A program made the position numbers and the translations under genes. Under the pieces are notes generated by a model. It saw only the letters and a program-made list of their open reading frames with translations, did no database searches and was not told the DNA's origin. Positions 11,321 to 38,222 of a stretch of DNA of 64,000 bases are shown piece by piece (position 1 is the stretch's first letter; each line of letters opens with the position of its first letter). This DNA is from Octopus vulgaris. Taxonomy: Eukaryota. Location: the NCBI GenBank assembly GCA_951406725.2, contig OX597815.1:190340001-190404000 (forward strand), written 5' to 3'.

Positions 11321-11541
11321 CCCTTTTGATACCAACTTGGCTGAAACCGGCTCTGGCTCTGATTACAAATGTCTTGTTTTCATAAGTTCTGAATTAAAAT
11401 CTTCTACCAAACCTTAGTCACAATTTATGTTCCTATCACTAGCTTAATGATAACCAAGTTATTTTACTAAATTCTTTGTTATATTTAAAATTGATTGAAA
11501 AAAACAGAGAGCATCTCAAAATAAATACAGTACCGAGAGGG
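11321..11541. mobile_element. piggyBac-type MITE, copy 2
   Basis: TTAA|CCCTTTTG ... GAGAGGG|TTAA; homologous to copy 1 throughout. Confidence 0.75.
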
Positions 11542-12366: not shown

Positions 12367-12468
<102 letters not shown>

Positions 12469-12506
12469 TATACATACATACATACATATATACATATATA
12501 TATATA

Positions 12507-12732
12507 CAGTTGCGGCCAAAATGTTCAGAACGGCATTGTTTTTGCCAGAAAAGTAGGTATAAGTTTTTATCAAAGTTGTTTTATATTCTATGGGTTTTGC
12601 AGTAAATCACTAAATCATCCATAACTTTTGTATTATCCTCTCAAATTATAGAATATAAAACAACTTTGATAAAAACTTATACCTACTTTTCTGATGAAAA
12701 CAATGCTGTTCTGAACATTTTGGCCGCAACTG
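12507..12732. mobile_element. Tc1-like MITE
   Basis: TA|CAGTTGCGGCCAAAATGTTCAGAAC... TIRs of about 84 bp ...GGCCGCAACTG|TA. Confidence 0.85.
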
Positions 12733-12746
12733 TATATATATATATA

Positions 12747-13001
12747 TAAATAAAATAAAATACAAAATGGGACAAGAACGCAAAACATCCGGACAACTAA
12801 GTAATACAAAAGGGGACAACAAAACATCCAGATAGATGATACACAAAAAAAATACAGACGGGTCATTCGAAGCCTTTCATCTTCAGTCAAGAACCAAATC
12901 ATCTTTGCAATTTCGGCTGACTAATCTTGAGATTGCTCCAATCTGGCCAGCCCCAAGGAAAAACTAAGCTAAGAGCATTAGATTCCTTGGAATCTAATGC
13001 T

Positions 13002-13004
<3 letters not shown>
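12747..13004 (-). mobile_element. Probable Penelope-like end
   Basis: Lies between (TA)n tracts; CTGAAGA..GAAT variant core at 12855-12890; 16-bp hairpin at 12971-13004; tail homolog at about 35898-35980. Confidence 0.5.
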
Positions 13005-13063
<59 letters not shown>

Positions 13064-13087
13064 TATATACATATATATATATATATA

Positions 13088-13694
13088 CAAGTGAGTCCAT
13101 AACCCGTGGCCTTCTACATGGGATGGAGCCGGCCTACGTATGCATACCTTCCCTTCTTGGGACACAAAACTCTACTTGTGAAGACGTGTTGAGGCAAGTG
13201 AGGATCAGAATCGAAATCGATCAATGGAAATTGCGGATGTGCTACCAGTGCCGGTGGCATGTCAAAACTCTGCTTGTGAAGACCCGTTGAGGCAAGTGAG
13301 GATCAGAATCGAAATCGATCAATGGAAATTGCAGATGTGTTACCAGTGCCGGTGGCATGTAAGAGAACTTTCCGTTTCGCGACCGTTGCCAGCACCGCCC
13401 CGTTTCGTGTCCGTTGCCAGCCTCGCCTGGCCCCTCGTGCCGGTGGCACATAAAAAGCACCATCCGTTCGTGGCCGTTTGCCAGCTTTGTCTGGCACCAG
13501 TGCGGGTGGCACGTAAAAAGCACCCACTACACTCACGGAGTGGTTGGCGTTAGGAAGGGCATCCAGCCGTAGAAACACTGCCAGATTTGACTGGGCCTGA
13601 TGAAGCCTTCTGGCTTCACAGACCCCAGTAGAACCGTCCAACCCATGCTAGCATGGAAAACGGACGCTAAACGATGATGATGATGATGATGATG

Positions 13695-13696
<2 letters not shown>
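13088..13696 (+). mobile_element. Family C, longest copy, with internal duplication
   Basis: Duplicated AAAACTCT.CTTGTGAAGAC..GAGGCAAGTGAGGATC block, C body and (GAT)n tail. Confidence 0.85.
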
Positions 13697-13736
<40 letters not shown>

Positions 13737-13850
13737 ATATTTCGGAATGGTCATATTGCCAGTTTAGCCAATAAAAACACACGCACTATATATTTGGTGT
13801 TATTTTGCTTCAGTGATATTTATTTTTTACATTAATCTTAATCTTATTTC

Positions 13851-13895
13851 GGCCAAAGTTCTTTCGTCACACTCCTGTGACCGCATCAGTGGTCC
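13851..13895 (-). ncRNA. Variant hammerhead motif in a PLE-like end (13729-13910)
   Basis: CCA-CTGATGC-G-GTCAC AGGAGT GTGAC-GAAA-GAAC-TT-TGG; 18-bp inverted ends ATATTGTTATATTTCGGA. Confidence 0.5.
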
Positions 13896-13973
13896 GAAAT
13901 ATAACAATATCTGTTTCAACACACGACTTCACATAAAAAATCTTGCACAACAAATATTTAAACGTATATATAT

Positions 13974-14020
<47 letters not shown>

Positions 14021-14149
14021 ATGAAAAGGAACACACGGGTTGATCAAATGACTGAAACCGGTACTGAAATGTTCTTTATAAAATTATTTTAGCATTTTCT
14101 ATCTTGACTTGTTTTTTCATATATATATATATGTGTGTGTGTGTGTATG

Positions 14150-14187
<38 letters not shown>

Positions 14188-14330
14188 CAATTAAGATTCA
14201 CGTGAGTTCTGTTGAATTCACATGAATGCGGTACTTAACTTAGATGCACCAGAAATCTATATGGTGTTAACCATAAGATAATGCGGGGTGATTATAAATA
14301 AGAAAAAAACAACAAGAATGGATCAATATA

Positions 14331-14416
14331 TCGGTACAATTGTTTAGTACGAAGACAGCTTTATTAAGGCTGCAAATATTGCAGTAAATATAAGTGACCC
14401 GTACTCATCAGCCGAA
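14331..14416 (-). ncRNA. Hammerhead motif (GAAA mutated to TAAA)
   Basis: TCGG-CTGATGA-GTACG..CGTAC-TAAA-CAATTG-TA-CCGA. Confidence 0.65.
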
Positions 14417-14642
14417 AAAACATCTGAGTTCTCCAAACATCTAAGGGGTGATGTTACACTCTTGAAACATTGGTGATAGTTCTATAAAAATAAGAATTAG
14501 GTAGCAAATGGACTTATGACTGTGCAACACTAAAAGAACTTTCAGAAGTCCATTTGTTACCTAATTCTTATTTTTATAGAACTATCACCAATGTTTCAAG
14601 AGTGTAACATCACCCCCTTTAGATGTTTGGAGAACTCAGATG

Positions 14643-14730
14643 TTTTTTCTGATGAGTACGGGTCACTTATATTTACTGCAATATTTGCAGCCTTAATAAA
14701 GCTGTCTTCGTCGAAACAATTGTACCGAAA
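14643..14730 (+). ncRNA. Hammerhead motif (stem I 5' strand partly deleted)
   Basis: CTGATGA-GTACG..CGTC-GAAA-CAATTG-TA-CCGAAA. Confidence 0.65.
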
Positions 14731-14758
14731 TATTGATCCATTCTTGTTGCTTTTTTCT

Positions 14759-14799
<41 letters not shown>

Positions 14800-14802
14800 A
14801 AT

Positions 14803-15057
14803 CAGATCAAATGGAAATTGTAATTGTGAATCCCCCGTGCTGGTAGCATGTAAAAATCACCATCCAAACGTGGTTGATACCAGCTCCTCTGGCGCCTGTG
14901 TTGGTGGCACATAAAAAGCACCTACTACACTCTTGGAGTGGTTGGCGTTAGGAAGGGCATCCAGCTGTAGAAACACTGCCTGATCAGCTTCCCAGACCCC
15001 AGTCGAATCATCCAACCCATGCCAGCATGGAAAACGGATGTTAAACGATGATGATGA
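14803..15057 (+). mobile_element. Family C
   Basis: C body and (GAT)n tail. Confidence 0.8.
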
Positions 15058-15080
15058 TATATATATATATATATATATAT

Positions 15081-15114
<34 letters not shown>

Positions 15115-15189
15115 AATAGAGCAATAATTAACAATGAGAAGCTGATCATTGATAGATATTAAAAAGTCATAGTTTAATTGTGGTTCAGA

Positions 15190-15272
15190 ACCATTTACAG
15201 CTGTTTCTGCTTATCAAATCGAGTTAAATTTGCATTTATCTTGTTCAATTTAGCAAACATCGTCAGAATGAT
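15190..15272 (-). ncRNA. Type-I hammerhead motif with canonical core
   Basis: ATCATT-CTGACGA-TGTTTG..TAAGCA-GAAA-CAGCTG-TA-AATGGT. Confidence 0.75.
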
Positions 15273-15465
15273 TTAGAGGAATATAAATAGAAGAAAAATG
15301 AAAAGAAAGGAAAAGGGAAAAGTTTGTTAAGTCTTTAGGCTCACAGTTTAGTGACTTTTTGGGTTCCACGTGTGTGTATGTTTCCTCAGTTACATGAATG
15401 GAGCAGTAAGTGGGGAAAATGACTAGTTGACCAACAGTGTTAGTCGAAGGAGTTACATATATATA

Positions 15466-15590
15466 CAGGGTGTCCACAAAGTCTAGGTACATGAGGATTA
15501 ACACATACTTTAAGAAATTATTATTTCTTATATTTAATTCTTTATGTTATGATTTTATTTACTCCATGTACCCAAGACTTTGTGGATACC

Positions 15591-15593
<3 letters not shown>
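15466..15593. mobile_element. Tc1/mariner-type MITE
   Basis: TA|CAGGGTGTCCACAAAGTCT..GTACATG / CATGTAC..AGACTTTGTGGATACCCTG|TA. Confidence 0.85.
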
Positions 15594-15630
<37 letters not shown>

Positions 15631-15766
15631 ACACATTTACATACACGCATTCATACATACACATATATACATACATATATATATACACATATATATATAT
15701 ACATACACATGCATTTATATATACATGTACACACACACACACACACACACACGTATATACACAGTT

Positions 15767-15940
15767 AGTTAATCCAAACAAGAAAGCACAAAAAAACACA
15801 ACAACGCAAGGACGTGGAACAAATATAGTATTATTGGATGCTCAGGAAAGAAGGAAAGAAGGAGGGTTTAACGTTTCGAGCGGAGCTCTTCGTCGGAAAC
15901 ATAGGAGAAAGAAAGATCCAGAGAAGGGAAGACAGAGGAA
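15767..15940 (-). mobile_element. Penelope-like end with minimal HHR at 15866-15900
   Basis: GTTT-CCGACGA-A-GAGC TCC GCTC-GAAA-CG-TT-AAAC; second copy at 41446-41645. Confidence 0.7.
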
Positions 15941-16629
15941 TATATATATATACACACACTATTTTTCCACCTTGTTTCACATTTATGTACTTAGTCTGGT
16001 ATATACAAACATATACATACACATACATACTCACACATACACACACACACACACACACTTATATGCACACACATGTACACACACACATACACACACAATG
16101 AGTCTCTACTCAGTCTCTACTTTCCAGATTTCCAAATTGTTAAATGATGATGATGATGAGGATAAGATATGGGGTTAGTCAATAATGTCAACACCAATTT
16201 TTGACTGGTACTCTATGCAAGGCATTGGTCAGCCAAATGTGGCCATGGTGCCATGCAATAGGACTGAAACCCCAAAAGCAAGTAGCTGCAAGCTGAGCTT
16301 CTTAACCACACAGCCACACCTGCACCAATGTACAGAAGATTTAGAAGAACACCTGATGCTATTTCTAGCAGCTTAAGTGACCATGTAGACATTCCCCATC
16401 AATGATATTGCAAAGGTCAGAATCTGAATACGTCAATGCTGTGCACTGGATATAGCTAGGAGTGGGGCAGCAGTCTGTCCCAGGCGGCACTTTTAAAGGG
16501 GTGGCACTTTTGGGTCTGCTGTAGGTAATACATGTTTTTTGTGAGGTCCAGGGGCAGTAAATGGAAGGGCCACCTTGAGCTAATTCTCTCTCTCTCTCTC
16601 TTACTGTCTGTCTGTCTCTATCTCTCTTA

Positions 16630-16830
<201 letters not shown>

Positions 16831-16906
16831 TGAAATGTATATATATCCCCAGTTCTGAAAAAATCGATAAATTCGACATATCGACAATATACTCACCTTT
16901 TTAAAT

Positions 16907-16943
<37 letters not shown>

Positions 16944-16954
16944 TATATATATAC

Positions 16955-17200
16955 AGGGACATGGCCAAGTTGTTTAGGCATGTTTCATTCACAGTTGTGA
17001 GATTAGGGTTTCAATTCCCAGATTGACTGCACATTGTGTTCTTGAGCAAGGCACTCCATTTCACATTACTCCAGTCCACTCGGCAACAGGCTACCCTTCC
17101 AATAATGTCACTTCTCTAGTCAGTGTGGAAGCATCATTAAAAAGGTAAAGCGATGCAAAGCACACAGTGACCAACGATGTATAACAACATCCAATGTGGT
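16955..17200 (+). mobile_element. Old E-related tRNA SINE
   Basis: GGTTTCAATTCCCAGA B box, CTTGAGCAAGGCACT, and a GTGACCAACGATGTATAACAACATC tail shared with family E. Confidence 0.6.
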
Positions 17201-17704
17201 ATATATATATATATATATATAGAGTGTGATGGGTAAATTGTCACCATTTTATACTTTTAATTTCATGCATGCACATGAACTGAGTGAGTTTTTGAGAATC
17301 AGACTTAGTGATCTGAAGCTGGCAAAGATAACAAAAAGTTAAATAGATAAAAATAAAGATTGTATTTATCTTCCGTTTTGTCATTTGCTAGGAGACTGCC
17401 ATTTGAAATCTTGCTTTCCAAATATAGAATTCACTTTAGGGATTCATGTGTTTCTTATGGCGAGAAATGGCTATTATAGCTATACACGTTTATTACGGGC
17501 TTAAGCAGATTGAACAGTTTTGGTTGAATGAACATGAACTTCCATGGGAATTAGATATTTCCTGCATCTTAAACAAGTCTGCTCATGCAAAATGTGAAAA
17601 TTATAATCTTACCGAAATGTCTGGTTGCAGTTAATGTTTCTCTTCTAAGTTTCCATACTAATTAATTTAATTATTATGAACATATATTTTGGATACACAC
17701 TTTC

Positions 17705-17746
<42 letters not shown>

Positions 17747-17780
17747 ATGGAACAAAAATGCAATAGAGGACATTAAAATG

Positions 17781-17815
<35 letters not shown>

Positions 17816-18036
17816 TACAAACACACACACATACAAACACACACACACATACAAGCAAACATATACACACACATTCTTCTGTTTTTTCTCTCTCCTCACA
17901 CATCCTTTCTGTATAACAGCATACACCTGATACATGAAAGACTTCTTCCAATTTTCCGGTTCATCAAATCAATACACTTTGTTTTTACCTCATCTTTGTG
18001 GGATTTTTTCATTTTTGAACCACATATATATATATT

Positions 18037-18425
18037 TGGTAAGTAGCTTGTTTACCAACCACATGGTTCCGGGTTCAATCCCACTGCGTGGCACCTTGGG
18101 CAAGTGTCTTCTACTATAGCCTCGGGCCGACCAAAGCCTTGTGAGTGGATTTGTTAGACGGAAACTTAAAAAAGCCTGTCGTATATATGTATATATATAT
18201 ATGTGTGTGTGCTTGTATGTTTGTGTGTCTGTGTTTGTCCCCCTAGCATTGCTTGACAACCGATGCTGGTGTGTTTATGTCCCTGTCACTTAGCTGTTTG
18301 GCAAAAGAGACCGATAGAATAAGTACTGGGCTTACAAAGAATAAGTCCCGGGGTCGAGTTGCTCGATTAAAGGCGGTGCTCCAGCATGGCCGCAGTCAAA
18401 ATGACTGAAACAAGTAAAAAGAAAA
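18037..18425 (+). mobile_element. SINE family A
   Basis: Match to 198-600. Confidence 0.9.
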
Positions 18426-18600
18426 AAATATATATGTGTGTGTGTGTGTGTGTGTATACAGGTGAGTGTGTTACATAATAAGGCACAAAAAGAAAATGTC
18501 TCTCCCCAGACACAACAGAATATGCTTCAACACATGAACTCATATAAAGATTCTTGCAAACCAAATCCGAAAACGAAATATATATATATATGTTGATGAA

Positions 18601-18815
18601 TGCCAGTACTCATTGACTGGCCCTCATGCCAGTGGCAAGTAAAAGCACCCACAACATTCTCGGAGTGGTTGGCGTTAGGAAGGGCATCCAGCTGTAGAAA
18701 TCTTGCCAGATCAGATTAGAGCCTAGTGCAGCCTTCTGGCTCACCAGCCCTCAGTCAAACCGTCCAACCCATGCTAGCATGGAAAACGGATGTTAAAAGA
18801 TGATGATGATGATGA
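18601..18815 (+). mobile_element. Family C
   Basis: C body and (GAT)n tail. Confidence 0.85.
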
Positions 18816-19280
18816 TTTCAAGAATTACTTTTCTTGCACCACATGCAATGAACTTAACTTTCAAATAATCAAAATGGAATTCTCAAACAAATGTTGAAAG
18901 CACAGCATTACTAGCTAAGCTAGAGTGTGTGCTGCTCAAGGTGACCCTTCCATTTGCTGCCCCTGGACTCCACAAAAAACACATATTACCTACAGCAGAC
19001 CCAAAAGTGCCACCCTTTTAAAAGTGCCGCCCGGGACAGACTGCTACCCCCACACAGCTATGCTAGTGCACAGCATTGACATATTCAGATTCTGACCTTT
19101 GCAATATCAATGATGGGGAATGTCTGCATGGTCACTTAAGCTGCTAGAAATAGCATCAAAATCTCTCAGATCACTCAGAGCTTTCTGAAACATTCATTAG
19201 ACCAGTGGTTCCCAACCTTTTTTTTTTAACTATAGATCCTCATAAACATTCAACGTTTAAAAAAACTCCTATTATTATTA

Positions 19281-19612
19281 TCATCACCATCATCACCATC
19301 ATCATCATAATTTAATGTCCATTGTCCATACTGGCATGGGTTGGGCGGTTTGACCAGGGCTGGTAAAATGGAAGGCTGCACCGGACTCCAGTCTGTTTTG
19401 GCATGGTTTCTACAGCTGGATTGACCTTCCTAACACCAACCACTCCAAGACTGTAATGGGTGCTTTTACGTGCCCCCAGCAAAGGTGCCATTTGCGTGAC
19501 ACCAGTATCTGCCATGACTGTGGTTTTGCTCGGCTTGATAAGTCTTCTTCTCGAGCAACGCCAAAGGTCTTAGTCATTGCTTCTGTGAGGCCCAACACTC
19601 AAAAGGAACTCA
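19281..19612 (-). mobile_element. Family C variant
   Basis: (CAT)n followed by CCTTCCTAACACCAACCACTCC. Confidence 0.75.
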
Positions 19613-19930
19613 CACACACACACATTTAATCTATCTCTCGTGTAAGTCACTATATCGATCATTATTGCCCGTCAACCAGACAAGCAATGAAAGACGGCTA
19701 AAATTCACAGACCACTGTTTTCGTCGAATGGATCGACTCGTCACAGCGCTTGTTTACCTCAAGACTAGTGGTTAGGCCTGCGTGACAGATGCTCATGAAC
19801 TCATGCAGGACACAGGACCGTGCACAGTCTCAGAGTTAGCTTGCGCAATGTCATCTTGCACAGCCTGGAGGGCAATTTACTCTCGAGTTGGAGTCAACGT
19901 CAACAAGTAATGTGCCATAGACTAGGAAGA

Positions 19931-19961
<31 letters not shown>

Positions 19962-19964
19962 ATA

Positions 19965-20172
19965 TGGCAGAATCATTAGCACGCCTGGCGAAATGCGTAG
20001 CCATATTTCGTCAGCCGTTACATTCTGAGTTCAAATTCTGCCGAGGTCGACTTTGTCTTTCATCCTTTCGGGGTCGATAAATAAAGTACCAGTTAAGCAC
20101 TGGGGTCGATGTAATCGACTTCATCCCTTTGTTTGTCTCCTCTATGTTTAGCCCCTTGTGGGCAATAAAGAA
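19965..20172 (+). mobile_element. SINE family B
   Basis: B head, core and B1 tail. Confidence 0.9.
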
Positions 20173-20198
20173 AGAAATATATATATATACTTTTTTTT

Positions 20199-20565
20199 TA
20201 CTCTTTTACTTGTTTTAGTCATTTGACTGTGGCCATGCTGGAGCACCGCCTTTAGTCGAGCAAATCGACCCCAGGACATATTCTTTGGAAGCCTAGTACT
20301 TATTCTATCGGGCCCTTTTGTCGAACCGCTAATTTACGGGGACGTAAACACACCAGCATCGGTTGTCAAGCGATGTTGAGGGGACAAACACAGACACACA
20401 AACATACACACACACATAGATATAGTTATACATTTATACGACAGGCTTCTTTCAGTTTCCGTCTACCAAATCCACTCACAAGGCTTTGGTCGACCCGAGG
20501 CTATAGTAGGACTGAACCCAGAACCATGTGGTTCATAAGCAAGCTACTTATCACACAGCCACTCC
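20199..20565 (-). mobile_element. SINE family A (internal deletion)
   Basis: Reverse-complement match. Confidence 0.9.
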
Positions 20566-20611
20566 ATATATAAATGTGTGTGTTATTATTGCTGACAGGT
20601 AAGCATGCATA

Positions 20612-21093
20612 TATACATACATCCATACATACATACATCCATACATACATACATACATACATACATACATACATACATACATACATACATACATACATAC
20701 ATACATACATACATACATACATACATACGTACATACATACGTACATACATACGTACATACATACGTACATACATACATACATACATACATAGATACATAC
20801 ATACGTACATAAATGCATGCATACATACATACTTATATACATACATACATACACACATACATACATACATACATACATACATACATACATACATACATAC
20901 ATACATACATACATACATACGTACATACATACGTACATACATACGTACATACATACGTACATACATACATACATACATACATACATACATACATACGTAC
21001 ATACATGCATGCATACATACATACTTATATACATACATACATACACACATACATACATACATACATACATACAAACGTACATACATACATACA
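20612..21093. repeat. (TACA)n array with a higher-order duplication
   Basis: The variant block ATGCATGCATACATACATACTTATATAC occurs twice, about 190 bp apart. Confidence 0.95.
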
Positions 21094-21900
21094 TAAGCGT
21101 GTGCACATACACACACACATATGTACATATATTAGTTAATAACATTTAATCATTTGTTTTATTTTGGAAATTGCGAATGTCATTTCTTTATAAAATAGAT
21201 TTTTATTACACACAGGCGAGGCATATTCCGCGCCTGCGCGTGCGTGTGTATGTTTTATTAGCAAAGAAATTGCTTCTGACACCTAGGGCTTAGAATGTCA
21301 GTTTTCTTCATAAAACCATGAGATACTAACTATCAGAAACAGTAATTTAATGATTCGAGCTGTGGAGCCGGATTTGTATACTTTAATCGGCAGAACATCC
21401 GATTATTTTTATAGACTCATTAAAGTGGAGGTATTCACCTTGCAGGTGTTTCGTTACGCAAGGAAAAGGGCGCAAGGGAGATAACTTGAAAACAATTTGC
21501 AAACCTTTTCAAGTGAGTGCTCGCTAAATCGTTTTTGAGAGGAAATATTCAAAAGGATAAAATATAAAAGAAATGAGAAAAAAACGAATGGAAGAATAAC
21601 AATTTTTCAACGGAATCAAATTTAGAAAGTAAAACTGGAGAAGTAATGAAAGAAGATGAAACAAAACATCTTGAAGATTTAAGATACACACACGCACTCA
21701 AATGTGTGTGTGTGTGCGTGCGTTCGTGTGTGTGTGTGTGTGTGTGTGTGTCTGTGTGTGTGTGTGTGCGTGTGTGTGTGTGTGTGCGTGCGTTCGTGTG
21801 TGTGTATGTGTGTGTGTGTTTTCTGCAATAATTTGAGAAGCGGTGACGAGTGACAATTTCTGTGAATAATAGTATTTTATAAGCTTAACAATAATGATAA

Positions 21901-22124
21901 TCTTTTTCTACTCTAGGCACAAGGCCAGAAATTTTGCGGGGGAGGATGGGGGGGGGGCCAGTCGATTAGATCAACTCCACTACGCAACTGGTAATTAATT
22001 TATTTATCGACCTCGAAAGGATGAAAGGTAAATGCGACCTCGGCGGAATTTGAACCCAGAACGTAAAGACAGACGAAATATTTCGAAGCATTTCGTCCGG
22101 CGAGCTAACGTTTCTGCCAGCCTC
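21901..22124 (-). mobile_element. SINE family B (B2 tail)
   Basis: CTACTCTAGGCACAAGGCC tail plus B core and head. Confidence 0.85.
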
Positions 22125-22156
22125 GCAGTAGTAGTAGTATTAGTAGTAGTAGAAAT

Positions 22157-22157
22157 G

Positions 22158-22199
<42 letters not shown>

Positions 22200-22244
22200 T
22201 TAATAATAATAATGATGATGATGATGATGATAATAATGATGATG

Positions 22245-22277
<33 letters not shown>

Positions 22278-22288
22278 TTAATAATAAT

Positions 22289-22347
<59 letters not shown>
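22157..22347. repeat. (AAT)n/(GAT)n microsatellite
   Basis: Direct reading. Confidence 0.95.
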
Positions 22348-22484
22348 GCTTATAAAATATTATTTACTGAATATATATGTCCGTGTGTGTATACACACCC
22401 GAGTATATATATATATTCTGTGTCCATGGGAATATGAATGCGTGTGTGTGCGTTACGATGTGTCAAAAAGTTTCGTCTTATTTC

Positions 22485-22815
22485 CCAGCCCTAGTTCCAG
22501 GTTCAATCCCACTGCACGGTACCTTGGGCGAGAATCTTCTACTATAAGCCCAGGTATTCTGCTAAAGCCCAAAGCTTTGTGAAGGGATTTGGTTGACGGA
22601 AACTGAAAGAAGCCCGTCGTATGTGTTTGTGACTGTGTTTGTCTTTCTCTCTCTCCACCACTTGAAAATGGGGGTTGACGCGTTTACGTCACCGTAACTT
22701 AGCGGTTCAGAGACCGATAGAATAAGTACCGGGGTCGATTCGTTTGGCTGAGATTCTTCAAGGCGGTGCTCCATTATGGCCGGAATCTAATGACTGAATG
22801 AAGGAAGAGATAAAA
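22485..22815 (+). mobile_element. Diverged SINE A
   Basis: GGTTCAATCCCACTGC..GACGGAAACTGAAAGAAGCCC..AATGACTGAA. Confidence 0.75.
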
Positions 22816-22816
22816 A

Positions 22817-24002
<1,186 letters not shown>

Positions 24003-24003
<1 letters not shown>

Positions 24004-24570
24004 GGGGCCGATAAATTAAGTACCAGTTACGCACTGGGGTCGATATAATCGACTGGCCCCCTTCCTCCCCACAAAATTTCTGGCCTTGTGCCTAGAGTAG
24101 AAAAGATTACCATTATTGTTAAGCTTATAAAATATTATTATTCACAAAAATTGTCACTCGTCACCGCTTCTCAAATTATCGCAGTTGGTATTTATTTCAT
24201 CGACCCCGAAAGGACGAAAACAAAGTCGAGCTCGAAAGGATGAAAGGTGAAGTCGACCTTGGCGGTATTTGAACTCAGAACATAGAGACGGACGAAATTG
24301 CTGTTAAGCATTTTGTCCCGCGTGCTCACGATGCTGCCAGCTTGCCGCCTTACAAAAGACTATTATAATAAGAATTTCAAATATTGACACAAAGCCAGCA
24401 GTTTCGATGGACGGGATAAGTCGGTTACATCGACGCCGGTGCTCAACTGGTAACTAATTTGATCGACACAAAAAGGGTGAACGGCGAAGTCGACCTCGGT
24501 GGAATTTGAACTCAGAACACAAAGTCAGACGGAATGCTGCTAAGCTAACGATTCTGCCAGCTCGTCACTT
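24003..24570. mobile_element. Cluster of SINE B fragments
   Basis: Plus-strand fragment at 24003-24105; minus-strand copies at about 24185-24352 and 24375-24570. Confidence 0.75.
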
Positions 24571-24585
24571 TAATAGTGTCTATAA

Positions 24586-24786
24586 CAGTGGTTTTCAACC
24601 AGGGTTCCGCCAGTACAGTCCTGGGGTCCCGCAAGAAGTTACAAAAATGCTAAAATCGACTGTAATTTTTAATTCTCCTGTGCAGATATGTGTGCATAAG
24701 ACAATTAAATTATTGCACAGGGGTTCCTCGAGCCAGTGGAATGTTTCCTTGGGGTTCCACTCTAGCAAAAAGGTTGAAAAGCACTG
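24586..24786. mobile_element. hAT (Charlie-like) MITE
   Basis: TIR CAGTGGTTTTCAACC/GGTTGAAAAGCACTG with a perfect 8-bp TSD GTCTATAA. Confidence 0.92.
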
Positions 24787-25002
24787 GTCTATAATAATCC
24801 TTTCTACTATAGGCACAATGCCTGAAATTTTGGGGGAAGGGGGCTAGTCGATTACATCGACCCCAGTGTCTATAATAATGATCCTCAAACTAAAAGCGAG
24901 AAATCACTGCTTCATTTTTTTGTAGCTCAAGGAGTCTCTACCTGAAAATAAAACCTGCTAGAAATAGCAGCAAAACTACCTGTAAATCAAAATAATCGTC
25001 TT

Positions 25003-25680
25003 GGCAGACGAAATACCTATTTCTTTACTACCCACAAGAGGCTAAACACAGAGAGGACATACAAACGGATTAAGTCGATTACATCGACTTCAGAGCGTAA
25101 CTGGTACTTAATTTATCGACCCCGAAAGGATGAAAGGCAAAGCTGACCTCGGCGGAATTTGAACTCAAAACGCAACGGCAGACGAAATACTGCTAAGCAT
25201 TTCGCCTGGCGCGCTAACGCTTCTGCCAGCTCGCCGCCTTCGTTCACCAACCTCTAATGGTGGCAGTACGTACTTGGCACTGGAGGCAAACGCGCGCGCA
25301 CACACAAACACGTTGAAATACACATTCAGAGAGAGAGTGAGAGAGAGAGAAAGAGAGAGAGAGAGAAAAGAGAGAGAGAGAGAGATTATAATTTATTGAG
25401 CACGATTGGCGTGAACTCTTTCCCTCTACTCATATATGATACATTATATATTTCTTTACTACCCACAGGGGGCTAAACACAGAGGGGACAAACAAGGACA
25501 TACAAAGAGTTAAAGTGATTCCATCGACCCCAGTGCGTAACTGGTACTTAATTTATCGACCCTGAAAGGATGAAAGGCAAAGTCGATCTCGGCGGAATTT
25601 GAACTCAGAACGTAACGGCAGACGAAATACGGCTTCGCATTTCGCCCGGCGTGCTACCGTTTCTGCCAGCTCGCCGCCTT
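25003..25680 (-). mobile_element. Two SINE B copies (25003-25240, 25450-25680)
   Basis: Reverse-complement matches with B1 tails. Confidence 0.9.
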
Positions 25681-26140
25681 CAATATATGATTGATTGATT
25701 CTAGTTTCAGCTCATGAGCTGTGGCCATGCTGGGGCACCGCCATTTAGATACATTATATGATACATTATATTTTATCTTTTACCTGTTTTAGTGATTAGA
25801 CTGCGGCCATGCTGGGGCACCTCTTTCTGGAATTTTAGTCGAACGACTCGACCCCGCTGCTTATTTTCTTAAAGCGTGGTACTTATTCTTATCGGTTTCT
25901 CGGGTTCTATAGCATATGCATTTCCCACCCCTGGACAGAACGCCGACCCGTTGCACTGTTATTCATTTTTGCCAGGTGAGTGAACAGGAACAAGGTGAAA
26001 AGAAGTGTTTTTGCTCAAGAAGATAACGCATCGCCCGATACTGGATTCGAAACTGAAATCGTATGATCATGAGTACAACACCCCCTAACCAGTAAACCAC
26101 GCGCCTCCATCTTTTAAACAGCAGTTAGAGTATATTTTCA

Positions 26141-26558
26141 GGATCTTTTCGGTTTGAACGGCAGTTTTTTTCTAGCGGTGTCATAGGAAATTGTCACCCA
26201 TAATTATGACTCTAGTATCGATCTATTGCATTTCAATCTGTTTTAGGGTTAGTTAGGGTTAGGGTTTGGGTGAAGGGTATCTTTTTTTTCTTCACAAAGG
26301 TAAATAAACCCAATCTGTTTATTAAACGAGAGTCATATTCGTACGGCACAGAATATTTCTTTTTACCTCAATAGACATCAGTGATTGGTTGAAATTGCAG
26401 AAAAAAACACAACAAATATCTTATAAACTATAGAATTTTCTCAATAAAGCCAAGAGAAAAAGATGTTTTAAAAACACATTCTACCTGTATACGAAGTTTA
26501 AAATGTTTTAGTTACCTAGAAATTATGGTAAAAACTGCCGTTCAAACAGAAAAGATCC
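26141..26558 (+). mobile_element. TIR element family D, copy 1
   Basis: TIR GGATCTTTTCGGTTTGAACGGCAGTTTT; internal TTAGGG repeats. Confidence 0.9.
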
Positions 26559-26679
26559 AAGTGTTTTTGCTCAAGAAGATAACGTATCGCCCGATACTGG
26601 ATTCGAAACTGAAATCGTATGGCCTAACCAGTAAACCACGCGCCCCCATCTTTTAAACAGCAGTTAGAGTATATTTTCA

Positions 26680-27110
26680 GGATCTTTTCGGTTTCAACGG
26701 CAGTTTTTTCTAGCGGTGTCATAGGAAATTGTCACCCATAATTATGACCCTAGTATCGATCTATTGCATTTCAATCTGTTTTAGAGTTAGTTAGGGTTTG
26801 GGGGAAGGGTATCTTTTTTTCTTCACAAAGGTAAATAAACCCAATCTGTTTATTAAACGAGGGACATATTCGTACGTTACAGAATGTTTTTTTTTTTTTA
26901 CCTCAATAGACATCAGTGATTAGTTGAAATTGCAGAAATTGAAGAAGAAAAAAAGCAACAAATATCTTACAAACTATAGAATTTTCTCAATAAAGCCAAG
27001 AGAAAAAGATGTTTTAAAGGGATAAACACATTCTACCAGTATACGAAGTTTAAAATGTTTTAGTTACCTAGAAATTATGTTAAAAACTGTCGTTCAAACC
27101 GAAAAGATCC
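26680..27110 (+). mobile_element. TIR element family D, copy 2
   Basis: Same TIRs and body. Confidence 0.9.
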
Positions 27111-27715
27111 AAGTGTTTTTGCTCAAGAAGATAACGTATCGCCCCGATACTAGATTCGAAAGTGAAATCGTATGATCAGAATACAACACCCCTAACCAGT
27201 GAGCCACGCGCCTCCATTTTTTAAACAGCAGTTAGAGTAATATGTTCATTATTGGAAACTCATTTTCTAATGTGACATGTTTTCTTTAATTCAGATTTTC
27301 AACGCGTTATACAAAAGTAGCGATGCTGAAAGTGCATGTAAGCAAGAGTAAAGGTTAACAAGTGCCAACGATCTCGTGATGTTTTTATACTTTTCGTCAG
27401 TCATTAGTTGCAATGTAAATAACATGAAACAACCATAAACGTCAGTCGAAGCCATAATGCTGAAGAGAACGGTTCAAACACAGTACCAAAGTTCAAATCC
27501 TTCCATTTATATAATTAGGAGAGACAAACAGACAGACATTATTGTCAATGATTTTGACGCATTATTTTCTAACACTGAGTGGGGAATGAATGGGATGATA
27601 GAAAGTTCGAATGGTGCTATTGGTCTTTTGTGAGCTGTAACAAATTTTCTGATAAATTAAAGAATGCGAACAAAAGAATGGATGCTACAAAACATACATT
27701 ATCCTAATTAAAACA

Positions 27716-28485: not shown

Positions 28486-28710
28486 GGATCTTTTCACTTT
28501 GACCGGCAGATTTTTAAAATAATTTCTTTGTAACAAAACACTTTTAAACTTCGTATACTGGTAGAATGTGTTACATAAAACATCTTTTTCTCTTGGCTTT
28601 CTTGAGAAAATTCTGTAGTTTATAGGCTATTTGTTGTTAAATTTCTTGCATTTCGGCAATTTCAACCAATCAATGACGTCTATTGAGGTGAATACAATTA
28701 CTGCTGTAGT
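28486..28710 (-). mobile_element. Older D-related element, one end
   Basis: GGATCTTTTCACTTTGACCGGCAG..AAACTTCGTATACTGGTAGAATGTG; another copy at 29350-29565. Confidence 0.7.
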
Positions 28711-29569
28711 TTGTCAACAACAATTTCCCATCCTTCTTTCAAGTTTGAGGGAAATGTGGCTTCTGTTTCAAGATCGTTAATTCGTGGAATGATTTATGTT
28801 TAAAGTGCCCGCTTTCTCGACGACAATCGAAAACAAATTGTCCAAAGTAACAAAAATATTTCTAGAAATCATTATATATATTTTTGGTAATTATTTTACT
28901 AGTTTCAATCCTTGCCCAGTGGCTATGCTTAGGACACTGTCTCCCAGCGTTTTATTTCAATCATATCAATCGCAGCGCATAGTTTAGTTTGGTACTTGAC
29001 TTACCTAATTGTATCGAATAGAGATCGATAAACTATAAACCAATAAATGTATGGTTCTGAGTTTGTAAGAAAGTATTGCTGAACAAATTGCCTTACGGCA
29101 GGGGCGCAGCCAGGTTCTAAAGTTAGTGGGAAGCGAATGCATAAAAAAAAAGGCATCGTTACACATATCAAACAATTTTGAACTCATTCGTTATACATTT
29201 TATAAAAGGCGCCAATTTTGAAAAATGTGCTCGGCGGAAGAGCGGACGCTTCTCTTGGTCCTCTGTTAGCTATGCCACTACTTTACGGCGGTATTTAGTT
29301 TCATTTTTTTATAGCTTGAGTTCAAATCCTCCTGAGATCAACTTTTATAGGATCTTTACCCTTTGAACGGCAGATCTAGAAATTAATTTTTGTAACTAAA
29401 CACTTTCAGACTTCGGACACTGGTAGAATGTGTCATATAAAACATTTTTTACTCTTAGTGTTGTTGAGAAAAGTTTATATTTTCAAAGTTATTTCGTGTT
29501 AAAGTTGTCGTATTTCGGTAATTTCAACCAATCAATGACGTGTATTCACCTGAATAAAATTACTACCGC

Positions 29570-31367: not shown

Positions 31368-32065
31368 CAATGTTTCTCAACCGGGATCCACATGACCTTT
31401 GGCGGGGTCTGTTACACATTCATATCTATGTGTATACGTTGGTATACGTGTGTAGAATACATCCCCACTTTTTGGCACTATTTTGTTAGTAACAGTACGA
31501 ACTGTGTCTAAAGTATATATGTATCACTACGCTGAATGTTGACAGTTCGTATAACATGAAAAGTAAATAAACACGTAAAACAATAACAATGGCTTCATAT
31601 TGAGTTGTCTATCCCATTAGAACGAAACTACACATAACAGGGTCCATATAGGATTTTGATGTCAAATTTATATGCAATAAATTGTTTATTTTAACCATTT
31701 TTTTTTACAATTCCTAATAATATTTATTTCGTTTTTGGATTTGGTTTACAAGATTCTTTATGCGAATTCGTGTGTTGAAGCATATTCTGTTGTGTCTTGG
31801 GAGAGTCATTTTTCTTTAGTGCCTCATTATTTAACACACTTACCGGTAAAGTTTCCACTTGTTTACTTATTTATTTTCCCTAAGGTTTTCTTTGCCTCTT
31901 ACAAACTTTTCAAACGACTATTGCAAAGGCTGCAAGACGCAAAGAAAATTTTAGGAAAAATAAATAAGTGGAAACTTTACCGGTGTGTGTGTTAAATAAT
32001 TTGGCACTAAAAAAGAATGATTCTCCCCAGACACAACACAGGTAAAAAATGGTTGAGAACCACTG
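31368..32065. mobile_element. Old hAT MITE with a nested inverted-repeat element
   Basis: CAATGTTTCTCAACC ... GGTTGAGAACCACTG ends; nested arms at 31789-31902 and 31931-32037. Confidence 0.6.
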
Positions 32066-32169
32066 CCCAGCATAATGTTAGATTCGAAAAACTGAAATCT
32101 ATTTATATTTTACAGAAATGATGAATTATTTACATTTGACGGAAATGTGTCCTCATCTTGTTTGTTATT

Positions 32170-32212
32170 ACTACGTTTCGGCTGACTTACTCACCAGCCT
32201 TCATCAGGCGTC
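32170..32212 (-). ncRNA. Minimal hammerhead motif
   Basis: CTGATGA-A-GGCTG..CAGCC-GAAA-CG-TA. Confidence 0.7.
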
Positions 32213-32360
32213 TGTGGGGAATTTCGAACCTGGGTCCTTATTACATAAGGTATTTTTCCGATGTTATTATTCAGGTCACTGCCTGGAATCAAACTCGGAA
32301 TCTTGGAGTTAGTAGCCTGCGCTCTTAACCACTACGCTATATGCCCGTGAATTTTAGGGC

Positions 32361-32528
32361 TTATAAATCTAATATTTTCCTATCCTTCCTTAATACTGGT
32401 TCCCATATTCTACTCATATCTGCACTAGATCTGCTTAAGAGGTTATTATGTCCTAGCATATGTGCTGCTTCTTTTAGTTTTCATATATTCCAGTGGTGTT
32501 CTCTGTCTATTATTTTAACTGCACCCCA
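32361..32528 (-). pseudogene. Penelope GIY-YIG endonuclease C-terminus
   Basis: WGAVKIIDREHHWNI*KLKEAAHMLGHNNLLSRSSADMSRIWEPVLRKDRKILDL*; fits the PLE W..VKI.D.E..W..RK.KEA pattern. The internal TGA is probably a decayed CGA. Confidence 0.8.
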
Positions 32529-32782
32529 CAGCGTGGAGGTGGTCTCAGGACACCTGATGAAGGCTGCAGAGTACATCAACCAAAACGTTGTGTTAACAAC
32601 AAACAAGATGAGGACAAACATCCGTCAAATGTAAATAACGTACTATTTATATATATTTTTATGTCTTGCCCTCGCAGTTTCTCATTTGAATCTATGCATC
32701 TTATGTAACAAGAGTTTCCAGTTGTTACTCTGTAATCTACAATTAAGAAAAAAAATATGAAGAATAAAGCGAAAATGAAATA

Positions 32783-33724: not shown

Positions 33725-34000
33725 TTGTTGTTGTTGTTGTTAAGGAACAAGTCACCACTGATTGAGCAGACCTGTAATGAAAGGCGTTCTAGTTGTGACC
33801 ATCCTGTCTTAAAACAATTGATTTGTTGTTGTTTAACTACAAATCATCACTAATCGAGCCTACCAGTAATCAAAGGCGTTCTAGCTGTGACCATCCTATC
33901 TCTTTTTTTTTCAGATGTACCACGGACTACATTATTTAGCGCATTCTTTTTTATAAGGGTAGTAGTAAAATTTGATTCGAGAGAGATTTGGATGTCGCTT
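33725..34000 (-). mobile_element. Dispersed repeat family G, (AAC)n-tailed
   Basis: GAGCAGACC..AAAGGCGTTCTAG.TGTGACCATCC..GATTTGAGGGAGATTTGGCTG. Fragments also near 40.8-41.0, 42.15, 47.2-47.7, 48.3-48.6, 53.6-53.96 and 60.4 kb. Confidence 0.6.
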
Positions 34001-34586: not shown

Positions 34587-34880
34587 ATATATATTTAAAC
34601 TGACATTTCTATATTTTAGTCTATAACCAAGAAAAAAAATAATGCAAAACATTTTTATATTTAACCTATTAACTGCCAAAATTTTTTATTCATATTTTTT
34701 GGCTTTGCCCGGTGTCTTAGGAGTTAAAATAATATATAGTATTTAAATTTTCATCATAAATTTTTCGAAAAGTCTCAAATGGGGATCGCTGATAAAAAGC
34801 ATATTTATCCTTTTCTATTCAATTGCAATAATAAACATTTTAGTTATTTTGTACAACAATTGTATATCATAATATCACTA

Positions 34881-35292
34881 GGATCTTTTCGGTTTGAACG
34901 ACAGTTTTTTCTAACGGTATCATGAAATTGTCACCCATAATTATGACCGTAGTATCGATCTATTGCATTTTAATCTATTTTAGGGTTAGGGTTAGGGGTG
35001 GGGGAATGGTATCTTTTTTTCTTCACAAATGTAAATAAACCCAATCTGTTTCTTAAACAAGGGACATATTCATACGGCACAGAATGTTTTCACCTCAATG
35101 GACGTCAGTGATTGGTTGAAATTGCAGAAATTGAAGAAAAAAACAACAAATATCTTACAAACTATAGAATTTTCTCAATAAAGCCAAGAGAAAAAGATGT
35201 TTTATAAACACATTCTACCAGTATACGAAGTTTAAAATTCTTTAGTTACCTAGAAATTATGTTAAAAACTGCCGTTCAAACCGAAAAGATCC
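34881..35292 (+). mobile_element. TIR element family D, copy 3
   Basis: TIRs GGATC..GATCC, (TTAGGG)3 inside, flanked by (T)ATCACT direct repeats. Confidence 0.92.
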
Positions 35293-35376
35293 TATCACTG
35301 TAAATATAATGGAGCTCACAATATACGAAGAAAACAAGCTAGACTGTGCACCAAAAACAATGTGTGTGTGTGTGTA

Positions 35377-36456: not shown

Positions 36457-37282
36457 GCAACCTGACTGACTCCTAATGACTTACGCTCCCCTTGACATGC
36501 CCAGCGTCCTCTTGGAGGCGGTCCCGTCCCAGTTGAGACCCTCTGTTCTGCGTAATCGATTGGCCTGCTAGAAATAACAGTTTGATCAGTTTCAAATTAT
36601 ACTCTACAATCTGAAAAGGAAAAACAAAGACATAACGGATGATGTTGTCCAGGAGAAATTATGTCCGGAAAATAAACGATAAGCTGACCATGGGTAGCAC
36701 ATCTTTGTTGGTATTGATGTGTTCGATTGAATCAAATAACAACAACAATAAGAGCAACAACCAGTTGGAAAAAATTATATTGTATAACTTTCATGCCAAC
36801 GAAGAGAAACGAATGACATGTGGGAACAAACATCCATTAATTTTGTATCGTTATGTCGAATTATTTTAATATCCAGGACGAAAATCTATATAGTTCATTA
36901 TCGTAAACCTATATTATAAAAAACAAAAGATTTCAATCACTCTATCATTTAATAAAATATTTGAATAAACGCTATATATACTTTTAATATTGGTTTTCTT
37001 AGACGCAATGTCACAATTTTAAAGATGATACATAAGCGACGAAGAGAATGCTCTTGTGGTAAAACGTTAAACGTACAATTTGGTTTCGTCCCCAAAATTA
37101 AACTGAATAGTGGAATGAACTCAGAGATAGTTCACTTTTTATTTTTTTATAATTCAGTATCAAATTTAGTTTTATTTACATAAAGATTGAATTGCAATTT
37201 AATTAGCAGAAAGCAAAGAAAAAGAAAAAAAGATGGAGGATAAAGTAGCAGAAGATGGGAGGGGGACAGCATGTAGGAACTA

Positions 37283-37693
37283 GGATCTTTTCGGTTTGAA
37301 CGGCTGTTTTTAACATAATTTCTAGGTAACTAAAACATTTTAAACTTCGTATACTGGTAGAATATGTTTATAAAACATCTTTTTCTCTTGGTTTTATTGA
37401 GAAAATTCTATAGTGTGTAAGATATTTGTTGTTTTTTTTCTTCAATTTCTTCAATTTCAACTAATCAATGACGTCCATTGAGGTGATAAACATTCTGTGC
37501 CGTATGAAAATGTTCCTCGTTTAAGAAACAGATTGGGTTTATTTACATTTGTGAAGAAAAAAGATACCCTTCCCCCCCCACCCTAACCCTAAAAGAGATT
37601 GAAATGCAATAGATCGATACTAGGGTTATAATTATGGGTGACAATTTCTTATGACACCGCTAGAAAAAACTGCCGTTCAAACCGAAAAGATCC
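37283..37693 (-). mobile_element. TIR element family D, copy 4
   Basis: Same TIRs, internal CCCTAA; flanked by direct repeats of about 121 and 130 bp. Confidence 0.92.
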
Positions 37694-38222
37694 TCAAATT
37701 TAGTTTCATTTACATAAAGATTGAACCGTAATTTAATTAGCAGAAAGCAACAAAAAAAAGAAAAAGAAAAAAAAGATGGAGGATAAAGTAGCAGAAGATA
37801 GGAAGAGGACAGCATGTAGGAACTTTAACTAAGACAATGGAAGTGTCAATGGCGGCAAACTGATCTCGTATACCGTATATAACTAAGCATTGAAACATTT
37901 TCATTAATATTGAAGTTTCTTCTTCTAAAACATGTATGCACAAGTTATATTCGACCTTCAAGCTATTGACGGTACAACTATTATCAATATTTTGCTATGA
38001 TAATCAATGTTAAGAATAACTTTCCTTCGTACTTAGCCGATCAATATAAAAGAGTGAATGGCGGTGAAGGCAGTGTAATATTTCACTGTGCAAAGTAACT
38101 TGATTTTTTTTTTAGTTGGAAATCATCAGAAATATGTATGACTATTTTCTTTACATGCAGGAAGACCGCCCTCCATTTGTCTTTCTGCTTACGATCTAAG
38201 TATTTATATCTTTGATTCCTAA

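What the first reader, a model, noticed from the sequence alone, without database searches (positions are those of the whole stretch)
37161..37824. Independent D insertion with a ~121-bp target duplication: a TIR transposon making long, variable TSDs
Seen: 37161-37281 (CAAATTTAG...GTAGGAACT) is repeated at 37695-37824 with D exactly between. This sequence is unrelated to S at 26 kb, so it belongs to the target, not the element. Three loci give duplications of 6-7, ~121 and ~138 bp. Known: long variable direct repeats are characteristic of a few bacterial IS (IS1549, IS1634) but not of standard eukaryotic cut-and-paste superfamilies. Inference: a possibly undescribed eukaryotic transposon class with widely staggered strand transfer, acting as a local duplicator of host DNA.
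Basis: partly seen in the sequence, partly recalled or inferred. Interest (0 to 1): 0.82.

Follow-up and report, generated by a model that had tools for sequence, protein, structure and literature searches.

The report
Mini-transposon flanked by long host duplications
A very abundant 411-base non-coding DNA transposon sits, at two of its three complete sites in this stretch of a eukaryotic genome, exactly between two copies of about 122 or 138 bases of host DNA, likely because a transposase that normally duplicates only about 8 bases sometimes joins element ends from two sister DNA copies to a nearby site, which would make this family an unusually frequent small-scale duplicator of host DNA.

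Summary
A 122-bp host segment (37160-37281) is repeated at 37694-37824 (115 matches, 7 transitions, 2 gaps), with the intact 411-bp element D between. At 26 kb a second locus has a 138-bp duplication, later amplified to S-D-S-D-S. A third has an 8-bp duplication with one mismatch. None of 7 other inverted-repeat segments has such flanks.

D is a high-copy MITE. Contigs of three organisms fix its ends at GG...CC and show a weak palindromic 8-bp flank consensus. That fits Merlin (GG ends, 8-9-bp TSD), so a new transposon class is not supported. No transposase was found.

Best mechanism (0.45, inferred): an ordinary 8-bp transposase performing hybrid-end (sister-chromatid or homologue) transposition into its own flank, as known for P and Ac. 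A footprint-like scar at 37818-37831 supports this weakly. Main rival (0.30): true one-step long TSDs from widely spaced strand transfers, as in IS1549/IS1634. The genome-wide TSD histogram, an empty site and an autonomous partner could not be obtained. What stays unusual is the local frequency (2 of 3 loci) and the similar, nucleosome-scale sizes.

The parts
37160..37282 (+). S-left: left copy of the duplicated host segment (122 bp plus the A next to the element)
   Evidence: S is itself part of a low-copy repeat (22-28 contigs with shared substitutions)
37283..37693 (-). D: 411-bp non-autonomous TIR element (MITE), GG...CC termini, intact, no coding capacity found
   Evidence: (loose ends at 37283 and 37693)
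37283..37311 (+). terminal inverted repeat, left in window coordinates
37665..37693 (-). terminal inverted repeat, right in window coordinates
37694..37824 (+). S-right: right copy of the duplicated segment (131 bp; longer A-tract)
37818..37831 (+). footprint-like sequence at the far end of S-right: first 7 bases of the 8-mer that abuts D on the left, TT, then its last 5 bases (possible excision scar; weak, post hoc)
   Evidence: 1.7% per end by chance, 0.3% if the complement of the lost base is required
26003..26140 (+). S1: 138-bp duplicated host segment of the second locus, starting inside an older dispersed repeat
26141..26558 (+). D copy (D26a)
26559..26679 (+). S2: middle copy with a 17-bp deletion; matches S3 at site 27 and S1 at the 8 later informative sites
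26680..27110 (+). D copy (D26b), sister of D26a (11 shared states against the other two copies)
27111..27248 (+). S3: right copy, 8 substitutions in 136 against S1
34873..35300 (+). D copy (34881-35292) with a short target duplication: 8 bp with one transition, at 34873-34880 and 35293-35300
28486..28702 (+). older one-ended relative of D (86% over about 205 bp)
29350..29564 (+). older one-ended relative of D (75% over about 195 bp), cut off by a SINE-like repeat

Best explanation
D is a high-copy, non-coding TIR mini-transposon with GG...CC ends, likely of the Merlin superfamily and likely moved by a transposase that makes 8-bp duplications, and its 122- and 138-bp flanking repeats likely arose by hybrid-end transposition into its own neighbourhood. 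Steps. (1) Inferred: D inserts normally with an 8-bp TSD. (2) Inferred: after replication the transposase pairs the left end of D on one chromatid with the right end on the sister. (3) Inferred: the hybrid pair is joined to a target 120-140 bp away in the flank, on the sister arm or the homologue. One product is flank-S-D-S-flank with both element ends precise; the reciprocal product is D with S deleted. If the target is the sister arm, the rejoined donor ends leave a scar at the far end of one S copy. (4) Sequence-supported at 26 kb: a later unequal exchange between the long repeats gave S-D-S-D-S. Shown directly: the repeats, the exact junctions, the termini, the high abundance, and one short TSD.
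For: Both element ends are intact to the last base at both long-repeat loci, as expected if a transposase made both junctions. One of 3 loci has an 8-bp TSD with one transition. Loose-end consensuses read outward from the termini give AAATTT at positions 2-7 in 35 of 36 letters, and the only G/C letters in the six 30-mers fall at positions 1 and 8, which points to an 8-bp symmetric target. GG ends, 24-462-bp TIRs and 8-9-bp TSDs define Merlin (PMC8101967, passages). Alternative transposition is an established source of element-abutting duplications: P-element hybrid element insertion, Ac sister-chromatid and reversed-ends transposition, including a 147/148-bp duplication beside hAT elements in maize (PMC3744419, passages). 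A footprint-like scar at 37818-37831 also explains the A/T mismatch at the junction (0.3-1.7% per end by chance). All six D-like copies cluster in 12 kb of the 64 kb, which suggests local activity. S/S divergence (7 of 122) fits twice the distance of D37 from the family majority state (about 16 of 411, read; expected 9.5, P=0.27).
Against: Such events are rare in ordinary families: 3 of 7611 hAT insertions in maize for the reversed-ends type. Here 2 of 3 loci show it (P=3e-4 if the true rate were 1%), although the window was picked for showing it. The two sizes are close (122, 138), which suits a fixed geometry better than a broad hop-distance distribution. The scar test was post hoc (1.2-6.5% over four ends). 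The 26-kb locus shows no scar at its left end, and none is evident at its right end. The 34.9-kb copy also has an unmatched A next to GG with no scar. Contigs of organisms B and C carry the same scar-like bases without gaps and, from their extents, may hold only one S; if those sites were never occupied the 'scar' is native sequence. The left and right loose-end sets are not independent, because the TIRs fit either end, and consensus agreement is only 0.38. No reciprocal-deletion copy was seen and no transposase was found.
Confidence: 0.45

Rival explanations
1. True long TSDs. One excised D is joined to two target positions 120-140 bp apart in a single event, either by a looped or nucleosome-wrapped target or by uncoupled joining of the two ends, for example to both sisters at a fork. 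Gap filling then duplicates the segment. The family would make 8-bp and long TSDs side by side, as IS1549 and IS1634 do.
For: 2 of 3 complete loci; similar sizes; precise ends; S/S divergence fits the insertion age; no scar at the 26-kb left boundary. Precedents for several TSD lengths within one family: IS1549 and IS1634, 8-514 bp, no mechanism proposed (PMC2266710, passages); IS481EU, about 4, 15 and 25 bp (PMC10045372, passages). One contig of organism B has two D ends head to tail with 25 letters between (table 5c), possibly another length class.
Against: The bulk flank signal is an 8-bp palindrome. The last base of the 37-kb duplication is unmatched and is followed by a scar-like repeat. 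D's termini fit neither IS1634 (ends start with C) nor IS481EU (TNT..AYA). Three loci, from a window chosen for the pattern.
Confidence: 0.3
2. Two ordinary 8-bp insertions of D 120-140 bp apart on different alleles (independent, or one a local hop), followed by a crossover inside D between the misaligned alleles. This gives S-D-S with no special transposase behaviour.
For: Very high abundance and local clustering. A nested or adjacent second insertion is seen repeatedly in contigs, including a D end joined to an S-like sequence a few bases from this site (table 5c). A hop would also leave the scar seen at 37818-37831.
Against: It needs a rare heterozygote and a crossover in 411 bp, twice within 11 kb. 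None of 7 other inverted-repeat segments shows the structure. Chimerism of D could not be judged from four copies.
Confidence: 0.15
3. Pre-existing tandem duplication hit by chance, or an assembly artefact.
For: Four non-simple tandem duplications of 80-230 bp and one spaced duplication without a TIR element occur in the window. No listed contig spans the S-D junctions.
Against: D would have to land on the exact junction at two loci (a handful of such positions in 64 kb). The copies differ by 5.7-5.9% with indels. Both unique flanks are present in related organisms.
Confidence: 0.03

Closest known systems
Merlin superfamily non-autonomous elements (IS1016/IS1595-related)
   Same: 5'-GG termini, TIR of 29 bp within the 24-462-bp range, 8-bp target signal (PMC8101967 passages). 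Merlin transposases are abundant in at least one octopus genome (191 sequences); the host being a cephalopod is my recall from its SINE-like repeats, not a tool result.
   Different: No long flanking duplications were mentioned in the passages read. No transposase links D to Merlin. No cephalopod family appears in part 1 of 2 of the paper's Repbase Merlin table.
Alternative transposition: P-element hybrid element insertion; Ac/Ds sister-chromatid and reversed-ends transposition
   Same: Duplications that end exactly at intact element termini; small examples exist (147/148 bp beside dhAT-Zm1; PMC3744419 passages).
   Different: The maize cases are D-S-D-S from two elements and rare (3 of 7611); here a single element sits between the copies at 2 of 3 loci. 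The S-D-S product of a single-element hybrid is my inference; Preston et al. 1996 was seen only as a reference title.
IS1549 and IS1634 (bacterial IS1634 family)
   Same: Long, variable direct repeats, 8-514 bp, around precise TIR ends (PMC2266710 passages).
   Different: Prokaryotic, autonomous; family ends start with C and the usual repeat is 5-6 bp. D's TIR had 0 exact matches in the prokaryotic, metagenome and viral collections.
IS481EU (parabasalid DNA transposons)
   Same: A eukaryotic DDE family with several TSD lengths within one family (PMC10045372 passages).
   Different: TSDs of about 4, 15 and 25 bp and TNT..AYA termini; nothing near 120-140 bp.
MULE / hAT MITEs
   Same: 8-10-bp (MULE) or 8-bp (hAT) TSDs; flank-hairpin excision that leaves footprints (PMC5499845 passages).
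   Different: Typical MULE TIRs exceed 100 bp; hAT ends are CAG/TAG (recalled), not GG.

Membership tests
MITE (non-autonomous TIR element) | short, TIR-bounded, non-coding, high copy | tested here: met
   411 bp, 29-30-bp TIRs; 0 of 103 window frames reach a Pfam cut-off; 11,017-25,890 contigs laid per run, almost all depth on D
Merlin | 5'-GG termini | tested here: met
   loose ends at 37283 and 37693 in three runs; all four full copies
Merlin | TIR of 24-462 bp | tested here: met
   29 bp
Merlin | 8- or 9-bp TSD | tested here: inconclusive
   1 of 3 loci has 8 bp with one mismatch, 2 of 3 have long repeats; weak 8-bp palindromic flank consensus
Merlin | autonomous partner with DDE_Tnp_IS1595 transposase and the same TIR | not testable with these tools
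   no genome held; no transposase frame in the window; no TIR-paired locus in any collection
Mutator/MULE | long TIRs (typically over 100 bp) | tested here: not met
   29 bp; definition from PMC5499845
Mutator/MULE | 8-10-bp TSD | tested here: inconclusive
   8 bp fits better than 9 (positions of the G/C letters) but lies within the MULE range
hAT | CAG/TAG termini (recalled) | tested here: not met
   GG termini
IS1634 family (IS1549, IS1634) | long variable direct repeats | tested here: met
   8, 122 and 138 bp; a resemblance of outcome, n=3
IS1634 family (IS1549, IS1634) | ends starting with C; IS4-related transposase | tested here: not met
   ends are GG (family table); the transposase could not be tested
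IS481EU | TNT..AYA termini, TSDs of about 4, 15, 25 bp | tested here: not met
Hybrid-end (alternative) transposition product | duplication ends exactly at intact element termini | tested here: met
   distance 0-1 bp on both sides at both loci
Hybrid-end (alternative) transposition product | donor scar at the far end of one repeat (sister-arm target) | tested here: inconclusive
   scar-like at 37818-37831; none at 26003
Hybrid-end (alternative) transposition product | reciprocal class: element without TSD and with an adjacent deletion | not testable with these tools
   needs genome-wide copies and empty alleles; no genome held

The most novel reading that the evidence does not exclude
A Merlin-like eukaryotic cut-and-paste family, present in tens of thousands of copies, whose transposase routinely joins the two element ends to target sites one nucleosome-length apart (about 120-140 bp) as well as 8 bp apart. 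It would be a eukaryotic counterpart of IS1549/IS1634, with TSDs five times longer than the longest eukaryotic DDE case found in the searches here (IS481EU, about 25 bp). It would have seeded many thousands of short tandem duplications that then amplify by unequal exchange.
Probability: 0.25. Interest if true: 0.8.

Novelty: new variant of a known kind. Interest (0 to 1): 0.45.

Why it matters
TSD length is used as a fixed diagnostic of eukaryotic DNA-transposon superfamilies, and MITE finders often cap it at about 20 bp (2-20 bp in PMC4405373), so such copies would be missed or discarded. If a large share of this abundant family carries duplications of 100 bp or more, it is a major local duplicator of host DNA, whichever mechanism holds, and it seeds tandem arrays (S-D-S-D-S at 26 kb). 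It would also give thousands of natural events with which to test how long variable direct repeats form; the 2008 IS4 survey said no mechanistic model had been proposed for IS1549/IS1634. If the rate is low, it is a tidy pair of known alternative-transposition products.

Tried and rejected
Own genome: not held.

Collection scans for the TIR: 0 matches in viral, metagenome and prokaryotic genome contigs. A looser pattern gave 11 and 5 loci; all 16 are single 24-base matches with no partner end within the fetched DNA and no internal D homology, so rejected as chance. Plasmids: 6 records, 46-base matches at E 9e-3, rejected.

Rfam on 25-39 kb: 11 matches, all below gathering score, on microsatellite or hairpin DNA. 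ARAGORN: 0 tRNAs. Pfam on 103 stop-to-stop frames of 65 aa or more that passed a low-complexity filter: 12 weak hits, none at a curated cut-off, none a transposase.

Empty-site test: 4 of 24 listed runs were laid. No joint skipping D was listed, but contigs break inside S, so such a joint could not be expected. The raw-read run X18 gave only 15 reads, none at 95% likeness or more, and is uninformative.

Rejected readings: S as part of the element (different S at each locus); AGG...CCT as family termini; Spy-like insertion without TSD (recalled AAA|TTT pattern; here the whole hexamer lies on each side); strand-specific deamination of single-stranded gaps as the cause of the seven transitions (the directions that can be inferred do not fit).

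Literature: ten searches. None listed a paper whose title or abstract start describes this TIR or TSDs of 100 bp or more for a eukaryotic DDE transposon. The library lacks most subscription papers and Repbase/Dfam entries, so this is not proof of absence. The TIR motif had 0 hits in main texts and in the one supplement of the 2026 Octopus vulgaris repeat paper; that paper's repeat library was not among the files seen.

Earlier findings of this scan: none for this sequence or genome.

Full report
1. Observation. 37160-37281 aligns to 37694-37824 with 115 matches, 7 mismatches (all transitions) and 2 gaps in an A-tract, at E about 1e-42. Between them lies a 411-bp element D with 29-30-bp TIRs. 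The TIR pattern occurs 10 times in the window against 0 in 100 shuffles: four full copies (26141-26558, 26680-27110, 34881-35292, 37283-37693; pairwise 4.1-7.4% apart) and two older one-ended relatives (28486, 29350). All lie within 12 kb. These form three independent complete loci. At 37 kb the flanking repeat is 122 bp, at 26 kb it is 138 bp, and at 34.9 kb it is 8 bp with one transition. The two long repeats are unrelated to each other. As a control, 0 of 7 other inverted-repeat-bounded segments has a long non-simple flanking repeat; one of the 7 scores high only because TA microsatellite lies on both sides. Non-simple local duplications without a TIR element do occur (four tandem, one spaced), but a chance hit on an exact junction at two loci is not credible.

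2. What D is. No genome is held, so I used public runs. 17 of 24 listed runs hold part of the stretch, and I laid 4. In the three contig runs (organisms B, C, D) 25,890, 14,605 and 11,017 contigs were laid. Summed depth over D reaches 5 million in X4 against 44-59 on the unique flanks. The tool warns that this is no copy number, but it implies a very abundant family, of the order of tens of thousands of copies. Loose ends pile up at 37283 (145, 128, 106 contigs) and 37693 (231, 208, 149), so the termini are GG...CC. Read outward, the six loose-end consensuses have AAATTT at positions 2-7 in 35 of 36 letters, and their only G/C letters are at positions 1 and 8. This points to a symmetric 8-bp target. 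Caveats: agreement is only 0.38-0.39, the two ends are not independent because the TIRs fit either end, the three organisms share insertions, and position 1 is biased by the aligner. GG ends, TIRs of 24-462 bp and 8-9-bp TSDs are the definition of Merlin (PMC8101967, passages). No transposase was found: 0 of 103 filtered frames reached a Pfam cut-off, and no collection holds a TIR-paired relative. So D is a MITE, likely Merlin; MULE is not excluded. That the host is a cephalopod is my recall from its SINE-like repeats; no call confirmed it (0 hits). Merlin proteins are abundant in Octopus bimaculoides, and 18 Merlin families covering 2.2 Mb are annotated in O. vulgaris (PMC13282606, part 1 of 3 of the text and its one supplement). 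That coverage looks too small to include D if the host is that species.

3. What S is. It is host target DNA. The 26-kb S begins inside an older dispersed repeat whose paralogue at 17 kb is colinear across the boundary. The 37-kb S overlaps a low-copy repeat: 22-28 contigs per run align to its left part and carry shared substitutions at 37194, 37206, 37207, 37210 and 37213. Both S copies lack these substitutions, so they are closer to each other than to the family, as expected from a local duplication. An AATAAA and an A-rich run on the minus strand near 37135-37175 suggest a retroposed 3' end (inference). The age is consistent: D37 differs from the family majority at about 16 of 411 sites (15 read, which hides 118 rows, plus one TIR site). 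That predicts 9.5 differences between the S copies; 7 are seen (P=0.27). At 26 kb, S1 and S3 differ at 8 of 136 sites. S2 follows S3 at one early site and S1 at eight later ones, and D26a and D26b share 11 states. This fits a later unequal exchange inside S that turned S-D-S into S-D-S-D-S.

4. Empty site. Not demonstrated. The flanks differ from organisms B, C and D by 1.2-2.3%, less than the S copies differ from each other (5.7%; Fisher P=0.01 against B), so the event should predate these splits. Contigs break about 33 bases into S, so no skipping joint could be seen. One indirect hint runs the other way. The right-flank contigs of B and C extend about 30 and 71 letters left of 37783, across a 32-bp stretch that is identical in the two window copies, where a graph of 31-letter words would be expected to break if both copies were present and identical. 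A single S (never occupied, or restored by excision and annealing between the repeats) would explain this; so would one substitution. X18 gave 15 reads and says nothing.

5. Mechanism. Both D ends are intact at both long-repeat loci, so both junctions look transposase-made. Three routes give this structure. (a) Hybrid-end transposition: the left end from one chromatid and the right end from its sister are joined to a site in the nearby flank. By my working-out this gives S-D-S plus a reciprocal deletion, with a donor scar at the far end of one S if the sister arm is the target. Such reactions are established for P and Ac, and a 147/148-bp example lies beside hAT elements in maize (PMC3744419, passages); Preston et al. 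1996 was seen as a title only. At 37 kb the 8-mer left of D (37275-37282) reappears at the far end of S-right as 7 bases, TT, then its last 5 bases. The first T is the complement of the lost base, as flank-hairpin excision would give (hairpin pathway for hAT and MULE: PMC5499845, passages; the footprint pattern itself is recalled, and Merlin chemistry was not found described). Chance is 1.7% per end, or 0.3% with the complement, and 6.5% or 1.2% over four ends. The test was post hoc, the 26-kb locus shows no scar, and B and C share these bases. In its favour: 2 of 3 loci (95% interval 9-99%; P=3e-4 at a true rate of 1%) against 3 of 7611 in maize, and two sizes close to each other and to a nucleosome length. 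Precedents are IS1549/IS1634 (8-514 bp; PMC2266710, passages) and IS481EU (4, 15, 25 bp; PMC10045372, passages). The window was selected for the pattern, which weakens the frequency argument. (c) Crossover inside D between alleles with neighbouring insertions. It needs no special enzyme but two rare events in 11 kb. I put these at 0.45, 0.30 and 0.15, with 0.03 for chance or artefact and the rest unassigned.

6. Comparison and novelty. D works like IS1549/IS1634 in outcome only; its termini fail that family and IS481EU. It meets two Merlin criteria, is inconclusive on the TSD, and cannot be tested on the transposase. 'A new class' is therefore not supported. 'A MITE family unusually often flanked by 120-140-bp duplications' is supported at n=3. 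Ten literature searches listed nothing on this family or on such long TSDs in a eukaryotic DDE element. I judged most hits from listings and abstract starts only, and Repbase, Dfam and most subscription papers are not held. Papers read as passages and not otherwise used: PMC2528002, PMC7776569, PMC7023781, PMC3439972, PMC8277862.

7. Verdict. Real, insertion-linked and more frequent locally than expected; best filed as a new variant of a known kind. Interest 0.45. One genome-wide histogram would move it to about 0.15 or about 0.8.

Noticed in passing
window 2190-3438: A 1249-bp segment bounded by a perfect 144-bp inverted repeat and embedded in TA microsatellite on both sides; looks like a young TIR element that targets TA runs.
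   Followed up: partly
window 22820-23186 and about 23680-24003: A recent spaced duplication (110 bp of unique DNA at 98% plus the preceding TG microsatellite), about 500 bp apart, the second copy ending at a SINE-like repeat; no TIR element between.
   Followed up: partly
window 37575-37592 (inside D) and the same place in the other copies: D carries 1-3 telomere-like TTAGGG units in a length-variable internal segment; contigs show many loose ends there.
   Followed up: no
table 5c, run X4: One contig joins a D right end to a D left end through 25 letters (head to tail); several join a D end to an internal D position (nested insertions); one joins a D end through 4 letters to an S-like sequence at 37166.
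   Followed up: no
window 37160-37824 and 26003-27248: 13 of 15 substitutions between duplicated S copies are transitions, against about half between D copies; unexplained.
   Followed up: partly
window 11088-11545, 13165-13360, 33731-33901, 57269-57467: Four non-simple head-to-tail duplications of 80-230 bp without any element at the junction.
   Followed up: no
window 28486-28702 and 29350-29564: Two older D relatives keep only one TIR and about 215 bp, and both stop at about the same internal point.
   Followed up: partly
run X18: Filed under the same species label as the best holder of this stretch, yet only 15 of 12.9 million reads laid and none at 95% likeness or more; the label or the filter is misleading.
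   Followed up: no
window 16354-19158, 42872-43655, 53831-55343, 672-1543, 31800-32028, 32126-32638: Further inverted-repeat-bounded segments, probably old TIR elements of other families.
   Followed up: partly
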